Part shown: positions 23,543 to 59,302 of the stretch, piece by piece | Position numbering within the stretch: the stretch's first letter is position 1 | How the letters are laid out: every line of letters starts with the position of its first letter | Source: Octopus vulgaris | Lineage: Eukaryota | Direction of reading: 5' to 3' | Assembly: GCA_951406725.2 (NCBI GenBank) | Contig: OX597840.1 | Span: 38,440,001 to 38,504,000 of the forward strand | Length of the DNA: 64,000 bases | Notes under the pieces: generated by a model | What the model was told of the DNA's origin: nothing | What the model saw: only the letters and a program-made list of their open reading frames with translations | The model's database searches: none | Position numbers and translations under genes: made by a program

Positions 23543-24124
23543 ATAATGGTAATAAGAACTGTTTACGTTAACTTGTAATAAATGAGGTAAGAACTGTAAT
23601 CAGAATTTAAAATTTAAAAGCATTCTATAATTTTTAAAGAAATCAGGTAATACAAGCCATTTGTTATAAATGATGGGAGTAAGAAAGGGAATGGCAAATT
23701 ATAGGGGCTATACAAGAATGATGGTGATGATGATGATGATGGTGACGATATGATAATGATGATAATGATGATAATAATAATAGGAGTGTAAATGGAAAGG
23801 AATTTAAAAGTATCAGAAAAATACTAACGTGTGAAAAAAAATGCGTCACCTCAAATCTGACGTTGATTTACGATAATCAAGCTTGGATGAGAGACACTGC
23901 CACGTCAAATGCCAAATTGAAATGACCTTGAAAGTATATAGAAGATACGGTGTAGAAAATGATGAAGATGATGATGATGATGATGATGATGAAGACGGAC
24001 GATGCTGATGATGATGAAGATGATGAAAAAACACAACATTATTAGCTACAAGAAACATATATAAAATAATCTATAACGTTCATGATTAAGGTAATAATAC
24101 AGAGTATATTACAATTGTCAATAC

Positions 24125-24172
<48 letters not shown>

Positions 24173-24333
24173 TAAAGTGTACTAGCCATCTGAATGTGGC
24201 TAGCCACTGGGGTGGGTGTTACTGACGCTTTTAGCCCCAGGAGATCGACGTCCCCAGCTGGCCTTAGACACAATTTCTGTGCCCTTATGATATTTGCAAA
24301 GGGAGGTCATCCTCCCTCGAAAACCTAAGTGAT

Positions 24334-24379
24334 ACATACGGACTATAGTTTCAAGGTTTTTGCCTCTCGTCAACGTATG
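24334..24379 (-). ncRNA. Antisense copy of the same hammerhead motif
   Basis: Exact reverse complement of 24520-24565. Confidence 0.7.
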
Positions 24380-24518
24380 GTAAACACCGGTTTTCGATGA
24401 AGGAGACATTTGCAAATAACTATTTAATGTTTTTCCCAGCAACCACAGTCACTGATTTAGAAAAACTGTCTGAAAGCATTAATAAATCTCCGAACGAGAT
24501 GTAAACGGTAACCGCTCG

Positions 24519-24565
24519 ACATACGTTGACGAGAGGCAAAAACCTTGAAACTATAGTCCGTATGT
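24519..24565 (+). ncRNA. Type I hammerhead ribozyme motif (U3 variant)
   Basis: acatacg-TTGACGA-gagg caaaaa cctt-GAAA-ctatag-TC-cgtatgt: perfect 7-bp stem I, palindrome ACTATAGT, GUC triplet. Confidence 0.75.
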
Positions 24566-24773
24566 ATCACTTAGGTTTTCGAGGAGGATGACCTCCCTTT
24601 GCAAATATAATAAGGGCACAGAAATTGTGTCTAAGGCCAGCTGGAGACGTCGATCTCCTGGGGCTAAAAGCGTCAGTAACACCAGCCCCAGTGGCTAGCC
24701 ACATTCAGATGGCTAGTACACTTTACGATGTCGAGCGGTTACTGTTTACATCTCGTTCGGAGATTTATTAATG

Positions 24774-24826
<53 letters not shown>

Positions 24827-32091: not shown

Positions 32092-32535
32092 TATATTGTT
32101 GTATTCCGGAATGTTCATTTTGCCAGTTTAGCCAATAAAAACACACGCACTATATATTTGGTATTACGTTGCTTCAGTGCTATCTATTTTTTTACATTAA
32201 TCTTAATCTTATTTCGACCAGAGTTCTTTCGTCACACTCCTGTGACCGCATCAGTGGACCTTTGCTTTCTTATTTCTTAGTTGTGTGTCTCTCCTTACTA
32301 ACCGTTATACAAAATGGCTAACGGTTAGTGAGGAGAGACACACAAATAAGAAAGAAGAAAGCAAAAGACCACTGATGCGGTCACAGGAGTGTGACGAAAG
32401 AACTCTGGTCGAAATAAGATTAAGATTAATGTAAAAAAAATAGATAACACTGAAGCAAAGTAACACCAAATATATAATGCGTGTGTTTCTATTGGCTAAA
32501 CTGGCAAAATGACCATTCCAAAATATAACAATATT
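32092..32535. repeat. Long fold-back (~215 bp arms, 11-nt loop) carrying HHR-like motifs
   Basis: Arms meet at ctaaccgtta|tacaaaatggc|taacggttag (32298-32328). Confidence 0.9.
32367..32410 (+). ncRNA. Minimal hammerhead-like motif (core variant CUGAUGCG)
   Basis: gacca-CTGATGC-g-gtcaca ggag tgtgac-GAAA-gaac-TC-tggtc; antisense twin at 32216-32259. Confidence 0.55.
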
Positions 32536-46489: not shown

Positions 46490-47510
46490 TTTTTAAAAAA
46501 GAGTTCAAAGTTCAAATTCCTGTGAGAATGTGTATTCTTTCACAATGTATAACCAGGTCACATATTCTGGCAAATTCTATGCGTTTCGTGAACAAACATT
46601 ACACATTAATACAATATTAATTAAAATTAGGTAGCTAGAATTACATTATCATTTAGCTACATTAGATATCTCTCCTGAACAGTGGTTCTAGTATTCCTCG
46701 GCAGGTATTGTAAGTTCTATTTATAGAGATGAGTATCACGTATTGAATATTGGAACCACATTCAGAAACAACAGTAATAGTGTAATATAATTGTTTTCTC
46801 TTCATCCGTCATCCCGCGATTATTAACCCTAAGGGGTATTTCTGCTTTCTTGGGAAGGTTTTGTGCTGATATGGCTTGCATGGTGTATGGTTGTTCCTTT
46901 TGATGTGTGAGACATGGCAAGATTAGAAATTCAAATATTGGTGCGTTTCCAATTTTCTGTAAAATATGTCTCTTGTGACTGTAGAGTTGTGTGTTCTTAC
47001 CTGAACATCCAGGAATGGTAACACATTGCAACCGGATACTGTCACGAATTAGATGGATGTATGAAATGTGTTGAGTATATTATTAACTGTATATAGGTCC
47101 TCATTTAATTGGTCCTTAAAGACGAAGCAGTCATCGAGGAAGCGTTTCCATTTTTTAATAATGTATTTTTTTATAATCCCGATTGAAGTCTCTCTATACT
47201 TCCTACTAAAGCTTATCTTCCCAGTAACCCACGACTAGGTTATCATATGAGGGTGCAAACAGCAACCTCAGAGTGGTGCCCTTTAACTATTGATATGCTT
47301 ATTATCGAACCTGAAGGTGTTTTCTTCTAGTACCACGCGTGTGGCATTGGCGATGACGGTCATTTTTGAAGTGCTCATTTATGCGTCCTCTAGGTTTTCC
47401 TACGCTGTGTTTGACTGCTTCCAATCCCAACGTGTGACGTATATTGGTATAAAGATTGGTATCTAGCTTAATAAATGACCTCTGAGAGGATACATTCTTT
47501 ATATCACATT
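46490..47510 (-). mobile_element. Penelope-like element RT pseudogene
   Basis: Ordered motifs DTNLYTNIRHTLGLEAVK, KGT...FAPSYDNLVVGY, WKRFLDDCF (47124-47150), LNTFHTSI*F...LPFLDV, DIFYRKLETHQYLNF*SCH. Confidence 0.9.
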
Positions 47511-58522: not shown

Positions 58523-59053
58523 GCGTTTCTATAATATGATGAAGTCTGGCGATTATATCAGCCGGAATGTTCTGTTAGCAACAATCAAAATGAGGACAAA
58601 TAGACGTTAAATGTAAATAATGTACATAATTCTTCATCTCTTAAATATAGAACAAAACTTTAATTATTACCTAACACACCTCCAGCATTACATACACATA
58701 TGTATGTGTGTGTGTGTGCGTGTGTGTGCGTGTGTGTGTGGCTCACAACAATTGTCTATCGATGTAAGATTGTTACAAGCCTTGAGCAAACCAGAGACTG
58801 TGCTGATAGATATTTCAGACATTTGGTACACAATGAAAACTTCTGGAGCTTCCTTATTACAGATCAAATTTCTTAAACGTTCGCTCATATTGCTTCCGTT
58901 AGCAGATATTCCATTCAAATTTTGCTTGAAGAAGAATATTCAAGTCAAAACATCAAGATAGATCTCCGAAATCAGGTTTAAAATGCTCTGAGTAAAACTT
59001 CTAGGCGAATTGTTATTTCGGTTGTCTAGCCCTCTCGTTAACTCTCTCACATC

Positions 59054-59101
59054 GTCTCTGATGAAGGGACATCCTTAATATTCCAGAAACAGCTGTAAGG
59101 C
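59054..59101 (+). ncRNA. Type I hammerhead ribozyme motif
   Basis: gtct-CTGATGA-a-gggacat cctta atattcc-a-GAAA-cagctg-TA-aggc; palindrome ACAGCTGT, GUA triplet. Confidence 0.7.
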
Positions 59102-59302
59102 TACCTTACCCTTCATAAACGCCCTATGAATTTCACACATCCTTGGCTTTGTGGTCTTATTTTATTTAATATATACATGCTCACGTAAGACCCGCATTAG
59201 ATGCCTCACTCGTATTACTATCGAGACGAGAGTCTAACAACCGTGCTCTCGTAGCAGTTACATAGCTTTGCCTGCCATCGTGGGTCTTCTGGAGACCAAT
59301 GC

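What the first reader, a model, noticed from the sequence alone, without database searches (positions are those of the whole stretch)
24171..24774. Interlocked fold-back element whose antisense copy is split at the base of hammerhead stem I
Seen: the order is A(-) 24171-24379, spacer, B(+) 24476-24522, A(+) 24520-24727, B(-) 24728-24774, all within (TA)n. The minus copy stops at ...caacgtATG and resumes at ATGtcgagc on the far side. A plus copy therefore interrupts a minus copy at the outer end of HHR stem I, with a 3-nt ATG overlap. The arms differ at only a few positions, so the event is recent. Inference: reverse-transcriptase template switching or self-priming guided by the ribozyme structure, similar to inverted Penelope pLTRs. 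Transcription from either direction would include an HHR.
Basis: partly seen in the sequence, partly recalled or inferred. Interest (0 to 1): 0.75.

Follow-up and report, generated by a model that had tools for sequence, protein, structure and literature searches.

The report
Two-armed Penelope-type hammerhead retrozyme insertion
This is one ordinary copy of a 352-base, protein-free mobile repeat with a predicted self-cutting RNA motif, sitting as two back-to-back arms in a TA repeat; the place where the arms meet varies from copy to copy and shows no peak at the ribozyme, and the arms were likely copied from both sides of one DNA cut by a Penelope-type enzyme.

Summary
The coordinates are right but the reading is not. 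Nothing is split: 24171-24522 (minus) is one whole 352-nt unit (M1-352) of a non-coding repeat with a type I hammerhead; 24520-24774 (plus) is a 5'-truncated second arm (M144-352) plus a 47-nt tail; the arms lie head-to-head in (TA)n. Own genome: 632 matches to the 3'-end motif. Of 136 insertions sampled by that motif, 69 are simple head-to-head pairs; 57 of 69 have one arm ending at M352 and the other at the tail end, the published Penelope-like (PLE) footprint. 5' ends spread over the whole unit: 5 of 191 at the stem I position, 7 of 191 at the cleavage site (both n.s.); only a weak, roughly twofold excess lies in the ribozyme's 5' half. The junction lies inside an extended stem I, not at its outer end. 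Best mechanism (inferred): both nicked target strands prime reverse transcription at two fixed sites, and the cDNAs join by microhomology. The partner PLE was not identified. The scan has already reported this architecture, and a LINE that targets these units, on other DNA of this genome. New member of a known kind; interest 0.3.

The parts
24128..24170 (.). left (TA)n target microsatellite
24171..24522 (-). left arm: one complete 352-nt unit M1-352 (M1 = 24522); its 3' end at site 1 abuts (TA)n with no tail
   Evidence: contiguous in other genomic copies
24451..24456 (-). U2-type proximal promoter motif ATCAGT (M67-72), 58 nt before predicted +1 at M125 (window 24398)
   Evidence: same hexamer at -57 to -61 in 11 of 12 U2 genes of this genome; the 12-mer around it is intact in 32 of 34 projected copies; promoter activity untested; a PWM scan ranked M124 only second of 352 sense positions
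24318..24396 (-). complete type I hammerhead of the left arm (extended stem I with internal loop, U3 core UUGACGA, 4-bp stem II, short self-complementary helix III); predicted cut between 24341 and 24340
   Evidence: fold z=-3.1; covariation in 21-23 relatives, 0-1 of 500 shuffles as high on four of five measures; cleavage untested
24476..24522 (-).
24520..24522 (.). head-to-head junction of the two arms (2-3 nt overlap)
24520..24727 (+). right arm body M144-352, 5'-truncated; holds the proximal hammerhead (core 24526-24532, predicted cut after 24558) but not the 5' strand of distal stem I
24728..24774 (+). 47-nt tail (M1-47) between the two fixed 3' end sites; on this arm only
24776..24824 (.). 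right (TA)n target microsatellite (any target duplication cannot be seen)

Best explanation
The locus is a head-to-head, two-armed insertion of a 352-nt non-coding hammerhead repeat (a non-LTR retrozyme), likely made by a Penelope-like RT-GIY-YIG protein that primes cDNA from both nicked strands of a TA target at two fixed sites 47 nt apart, the two cDNAs then likely being joined by a few bases of microhomology wherever they stopped. Shown here: the unit, the two arms, the two fixed 3' end sites, the one-short-end/one-tail rule, target duplications at other loci, variable junctions with excess short overlaps, and the two arms of a locus sharing alleles. Inferred: transcription from a U2-type promoter at M125; self-cleavage and (possibly) circle formation; the enzyme; two-strand priming; end joining. 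At this locus the site-1 cDNA ran one full turn (352 nt) and the site-2 cDNA 256 nt; its stop at M144 is mostly chance, at most helped by a mild slowing inside the ribozyme. The copy is predicted to be a dead end: one HHR per strand, and no tail behind the promoter-bearing arm.
For: Family: 242 exact and 632 near matches to a 3'-end 27-mer. Set 1 = 72 insertions from the first 100 of 242 exact matches: 36 simple inverted, 32 single-orientation, 4 complex; 32 of 36 inverted have site 1 + tail. Set 2 = 64 insertions from the first 100 of 183 matches of a variant motif (65 tried, L222 dropped): 33 inverted, 26 single, 5 complex; 25 of 33 have site 1 + tail. Tail ends fall at M35-64, mostly M44-52. 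Target duplications of 9-18 nt in 30 of 42 non-(TA)n inverted insertions, null 1.7%. Junction overlap of 2 nt or more in 34 of 75, null 16%. The arms agree at 72 of 76 subfamily-diagnostic sites (36 expected); they share 11 locus-private alleles against 0.4 expected from independent mutation, in 74 two-armed loci; here both arms have the rare A after M352. Published match: inverted 5'-truncated copy, tail at one end only and (TA)n targets (PMC8557442 passages; PMC3846280 passages); in vitro a PLE protein nicks and extends both strands and starts RT at two internal sites that bound the tail (PMC11167929, parts 1-2 of 4). Intact RT+GIY-YIG elements are in the genome, and one shows the same build: 766-nt arms, 100% alike, one with a short extension (L137).
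Against: No autonomous PLE with ends alignable to this unit was found among 35 GIY-YIG loci examined; the matches near three of them are separate insertions. 12 of 69 inverted insertions break the end rule (3 scored site1/site1, one of which shows a short tail in its flank; 1 tail/tail; 8 other). BLAST overlaps overstate microhomology. Shared alleles could come from gene conversion between arms or from a rare source locus. A weak excess of stops in the 5' half of the HHR remains. Set 2 holds non-independent loci (L225, L229 and L242 share one junction; L241 belongs to L242). No RNA evidence was obtained.
Confidence: 0.8

Rival explanations
1. Ribozyme-guided template switch or self-priming: RT stalls or folds back at stem I or the cut site and makes the inversion there.
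For: Stop rate about twofold higher over M133-176; step at M141, 23 against 6 ends; 6-of-7 imperfect match at this junction. Self-priming was proposed for PLE inverted junctions in PMC3846280 (discussion passage).
Against: No peak at M141-147 or M180-186; the step is post hoc and not significant in set 2; junction pairs range from M2 to M324; one self-primed cDNA does not explain two fixed outer ends plus a target duplication; HHR mutants did not change insertion in vitro (PMC11167929).
Confidence: 0.1
2. The two arms were copied from two separate RNA molecules by a dimeric RNP, or are two insertions at one microsatellite.
For: The arms overlap in sequence, which classic L1 twin priming (recalled) does not give; the PLE protein is predicted to be a dimer (PMC11167929); the arms differ at 6 of 256 sites.
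Against: The differences are all near-private alleles; the arms share rare alleles; one target duplication encloses both arms. Two RNAs from one source locus are not excluded.
Confidence: 0.2
3. Post-insertion DNA rearrangement (fold-back repair or inversion) of a tandem array.
For: Microhomology at junctions; tandem arrays exist.
Against: It would not give the site-1/tail rule in 57 of 69 or intact target duplications.
Confidence: 0.04
4. Assembly artefact.
For: Palindrome between microsatellites.
Against: The arms differ at 6 sites; 69 other loci have the same build with different junctions, many with target duplications.
Confidence: 0.03

Closest known systems
Metazoan non-LTR retrozymes (Cervera & de la Pena 2020, PMC7229834: passages and Discussion read; Li, Clavereau & Pollet 2026, bioRxiv 10.64898/2026.07.22.740005: part 1 of 5 read)
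   Same: Non-coding unit of about 350 nt with one type I HHR per unit, dispersed and in tandem; PLEs proposed as the mobiliser.
   Different: Here about half of the insertions are two-armed with PLE-type ends; in PMC7229834 the word 'inverted' does not occur. RNA, cleavage and circles are untested here.
Inverted pLTR insertions of EN+ Penelope-like elements (Craig 2021, PMC8557442; Arkhipova lab Adineta vaga paper, PMC3846280; passages read)
   Same: Head-to-head arms, 5'-truncated inverted copy, tail at one end, target duplications of about 9-10 bp, (TA)n targets.
   Different: No ORF in the unit; tail of about 47 nt rather than 30-40; HHR with an extended stem I rather than the minimal pLTR type; no coding partner sharing the ends was found.
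Poseidon_Ac in vitro mechanism (Frangieh 2024, PMC11167929, parts 1-2 of 4 read)
   Same: Two internal RT start sites bounding the tail; both strands nicked and extended; AT-rich targets.
   Different: That paper saw no strand difference in start sites, and in the parts read it does not link them to inverted insertions; here the genomic arms pair one site with the other.
L1 twin priming (recalled, not read)
   Same: Second-strand priming gives a 5' inversion joined by microhomology inside one target duplication.
   Different: L1 arms copy non-overlapping parts of one RNA; here the arms overlap and start 47 nt apart.

Membership tests
Non-LTR retrozyme | Short (150-400 nt) non-coding unit, low GC | tested here: met
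   352-nt unit; no coding frame of note seen by reading; the unit folds with z=-3.9
Non-LTR retrozyme | Type I HHR in each unit | tested here: met
   core and three stems with covariation; no Rfam gathering hit
Non-LTR retrozyme | Tandem copies with at least two consecutive HHR units | tested here: met
   met for the family (for example L046, L225, L264); not at this locus, which has one HHR per strand
Non-LTR retrozyme | Self-cleavage and circular RNA in vivo | not testable with these tools
   only contigs were served; no holder on record as RNA
PLE-type insertion | Inverted 5'-truncated copy with a tail at one end | tested here: met
   this locus and 57 of 69 inverted insertions
PLE-type insertion | Target-site duplication, AT-rich or (TA)n target | tested here: met
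   30 of 42 with 9-18 nt; hidden by (TA)n at this locus
Autonomous Penelope-like element | RT + GIY-YIG ORF | tested here: not met
   none in the unit; a PLE protein matches the window only at 46812-47460
Solo pLTR of an autonomous PLE | Sequence shared with the end of a coding PLE | tested here: inconclusive
   none among 35 GIY-YIG loci; only 150 of 6136 candidates were scored
Canonical (tertiary-stabilised) type I HHR | Extended stem I with internal loop contacting loop II | tested here: inconclusive
   distal helix supported, but 5 of its 13 pairs vary only by mismatch; the loop-loop contact was not tested

The most novel reading that the evidence does not exclude
Each two-armed insertion is written from one RNA molecule, possibly a ribozyme-made monomer circle, by two RT complexes that start 47 nt apart and tend to stall at each other's start points and inside the ribozyme. 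This locus, whose left arm is exactly one turn and whose two arms share a rare base, would be a direct imprint of that. Support: 11 shared locus-private alleles; 11 arms stopping at M1-8, including 5 tail-only arms at M3-8; raised stop rate at M23-66. It would give a general explanation of PLE inverted pLTRs. Searches for it in print found no such statement, but this scan's earlier notes propose it.
Probability: 0.35. Interest if true: 0.6.

Novelty: new member of a known kind. Interest (0 to 1): 0.3.

Why it matters
The value lies in the family. The step that makes PLE inverted repeats is still described as undefined (PMC8557442), and the mobiliser of animal retrozymes is only proposed (PMC7229834). 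A 352-nt RNA with two fixed start sites, a near-strict end rule and hundreds of young insertions is a small, ready substrate for testing both in vitro. The scan has already noted this for related families in this genome, so this locus adds a replicate and a negative result on ribozyme-placed junctions.

Tried and rejected
Rfam at gathering score: no hit in the window. The first own-genome DNA search used the junction in its query, so its top hits look clustered near it; it was not used for junction statistics. Sharp clustering at stem I or the cut site: rejected. Stops at M1-9: the count of 10 of 42 is inflated by tiling on a monomer reference; 7 of 18 such ends run 5-19 nt further, and only 11 were kept. 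Partner search: the L137, L141 and L134 matches (64-71%) are separate insertions of related units, not pLTRs; the ends of the 781-aa and 574-aa PLE families do not align to the unit, apart from a faint hairpin-plus-TTATTA likeness of the tails that I did not test. The 5.3-kb body found inside two arrays was first taken as a possible coding body of the element; it is an L1-group LINE. M141/142 as transcription start: rejected, since the U2-type spacing points to M124-128. Public runs: no RNA holder listed. Contigs of 4 runs cover both arms, but no listed piece bridges 24520-24522 and 24034-24169 is uncovered; such holes prove nothing. A repeat of the pattern search with 2 mismatches gave a count but no new places. 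The 10 matches and the 47 subfamily matches (mapped) were left out of the counts. Literature searches without a relevant hit. No supplements were read; Craig 2021 file S1 (PLE sequences, including Hydra-clade families) may hold the partner.

Full report
1. Observation. No other copy of the unit lies in the window. Rfam finds nothing, but the motif reads as a type I hammerhead with a U3 core.

2. Re-reading the anatomy. A search of the own genome (2.8 Gb, animal-like) gave 2665 candidates, 40 scored. In other copies A runs on into the spacer and the spacer into B, so the minus strand of 24171-24522 is one unbroken 352-nt unit, M. The locus is therefore M1-352 on the minus strand and M144-352 plus M1-47 on the plus strand, head-to-head. 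The 'split antisense copy' is a mirage that comes from treating the inversion junction as part of the unit.

3. The ribozyme. In 23 distinct relatives (70-97% identical, taken from loci beside a LINE, see 7) the three helices are 87.9% paired with 7 doubly changed pairs; 0-1 of 500 shuffles are as high on four of five measures, the fifth (further pair types) is not above the shuffles, and slid controls are much lower. Relatedness can inflate these numbers. Helix III is very short and self-complementary and varies in a compensated way, which fits dimeric cleavage as reported for newt and axolotl motifs (PMC6155905 passages; PMC7229834). Stem I extends through an internal loop to about M127 (fold z=-3.1; distal helix 87.8% paired, 3 doubly changed pairs, 5 of 13 pairs varying only by mismatch). 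The junction at M144 thus cuts stem I in the middle, and the plus-strand HHR lacks its distal 5' strand.

4. Census. I sampled insertions by a 3'-end motif, which does not select for the junction: set 1, 72 insertions from the first 100 of 242 exact matches; set 2, 64 insertions from the first 100 of 183 matches of a variant (one locus dropped). Together: 69 simple head-to-head, 58 single-orientation, 9 complex. In 57 of 69 inverted insertions one arm ends at M352 (site 1) and the other at the end of a tail of about 47 nt (site 2); 3 scored site1/site1, 1 tail/tail, 8 other. Outside microsatellites 30 of 42 have a 9-18-nt target duplication (null 1.7%). This is the published PLE footprint (PMC8557442; PMC3846280), and the tail matches the interval between two internal RT start sites shown in vitro for Poseidon_Ac, whose protein nicks and extends both strands (PMC11167929).

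5. The 191 5' ends range over the whole unit. M141-147: 5 (expected 3.9, p=0.34). M180-186: 7 (5.1, p=0.25). The stop rate is 0.80-0.84 per 100 nt at M133-176, against 0.32-0.40 just upstream and 0.24-0.53 downstream. A step at M141 is the best of 270 positions scanned (23 against 6, p=0.006 uncorrected; set 1 p=0.012, set 2 p=0.19). So there may be mild slowing in the 5' half of the ribozyme, or loss of ends near a transcript start at M125, but no ribozyme-placed junction. Junction overlaps of 2 nt or more occur in 34 of 75 cases against 16% by chance (BLAST overlaps run long), consistent with microhomology joining.

6. One template or two, and age. The arms of a locus agree at 72 of 76 subfamily sites (36 expected) and share 11 alleles found at no other sampled locus, against 124 such alleles in one arm only and 0.4 expected in both by chance (74 loci). 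Here both arms have A after M352, where 211 of 219 other ends have T. The six arm differences are near-private, so likely later mutations; 2.0% divergence against a mean of 2.9% makes the copy young but not unusually so. Gene conversion or two RNAs from one source could also give shared alleles. After correcting a tiling artefact, 11 arms stop at M1-8: 6 after a full turn and 5 after only the tail. The left arm here also stops after one turn. This hints at collision with the other priming site on one RNA, perhaps a circle, but it is not shown.

7. Promoter and a parasite. A hexamer found at -57 to -61 in 11 of 12 U2 genes lies at M67, which puts +1 at M124-128; M125 begins with the same four bases as U2. 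A PWM scan was only weakly supportive (M124 second of 352; a higher antisense score exists). The idea of testing this came from earlier scan notes. Before seeing those notes I had found that an L1-group LINE (zinc-knuckle ORF1, APE+RT ORF2; Tx1 clade by inference, no tree made) ends at about M122-125 in 30 of 30 best copies; 27 are followed by hammerhead-unit sequence and 3 by the target 20-mer and another LINE. This LINE is not involved at the focal locus.

8. Partner. Intact RT+GIY-YIG elements with a Neptune-type zinc linker (motif read against PMC8557442) are abundant, and one shows the same two-armed build (L137), but none of 35 loci shares end sequence with M. The enzyme is inferred from the footprint only.

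9. Verdict. Shown: unit, arms, end rule, target duplications, variable junctions, shared alleles, covarying HHR. Inferred: promoter activity, cleavage, circle, PLE enzyme, two-strand priming, end joining. It works like a PLE inverted insertion; it is a member of the non-LTR retrozymes on every feature I could test, with the RNA features untested; it is not an autonomous PLE. The two-site rule as an explanation of PLE inversions was not found in print (subscription papers and supplements not seen), but earlier notes of this scan report it for related families in this genome. Those notes are not independent support. New member of a known kind; interest 0.3.

Noticed in passing
L276 (G000:C18:19918000-19927900), L279-L308: L1-group (Tx1-like) LINE inserted at one site of the unit family, about 20 nt 5' of the proximal HHR stem, with a 17-nt target duplication (M125-141) at L276; 30 of 30 best 3' ends lie at that site. 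A related LINE end sits directly before a U2 gene (L314). Already noted by earlier scan reports.
   Followed up: partly
L277/L278 (G000:C4:124123500-124140900): Head-to-head pair of unit arrays, each carrying a LINE of about 5.5 kb at the same site, arms 98.5% alike over 2.5 kb; the 67|294 junction is shared with L225 and L229 on another contig. Suggests a whole two-armed array was re-copied, with the LINE as cargo or duplicated afterwards.
   Followed up: partly
window 32093-32534: A second fold-back, 442 nt, 91.6% self-complementary, with a near-perfect centre; unrelated to the unit.
   Followed up: no
window 59048-59107 (+): Another minimal type I hammerhead motif with a canonical core and self-complementary helix III.
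   Followed up: no
window 46812-47460 (-): Decayed Penelope-like RT fragment, 31-35% identical to the L137 protein.
   Followed up: no
L083, L093, L177, L134, L137, L141: Related hammerhead units 64-75% identical to M, some in tandem of about 340 nt, point to a wider superfamily.
   Followed up: no
L131-L136, L117, L122: Young, abundant PLE family with an intact 781-aa RT+GIY-YIG frame (copies about 98% alike), two alternative 3' ends about 31 nt apart, in (TA)n.
   Followed up: partly
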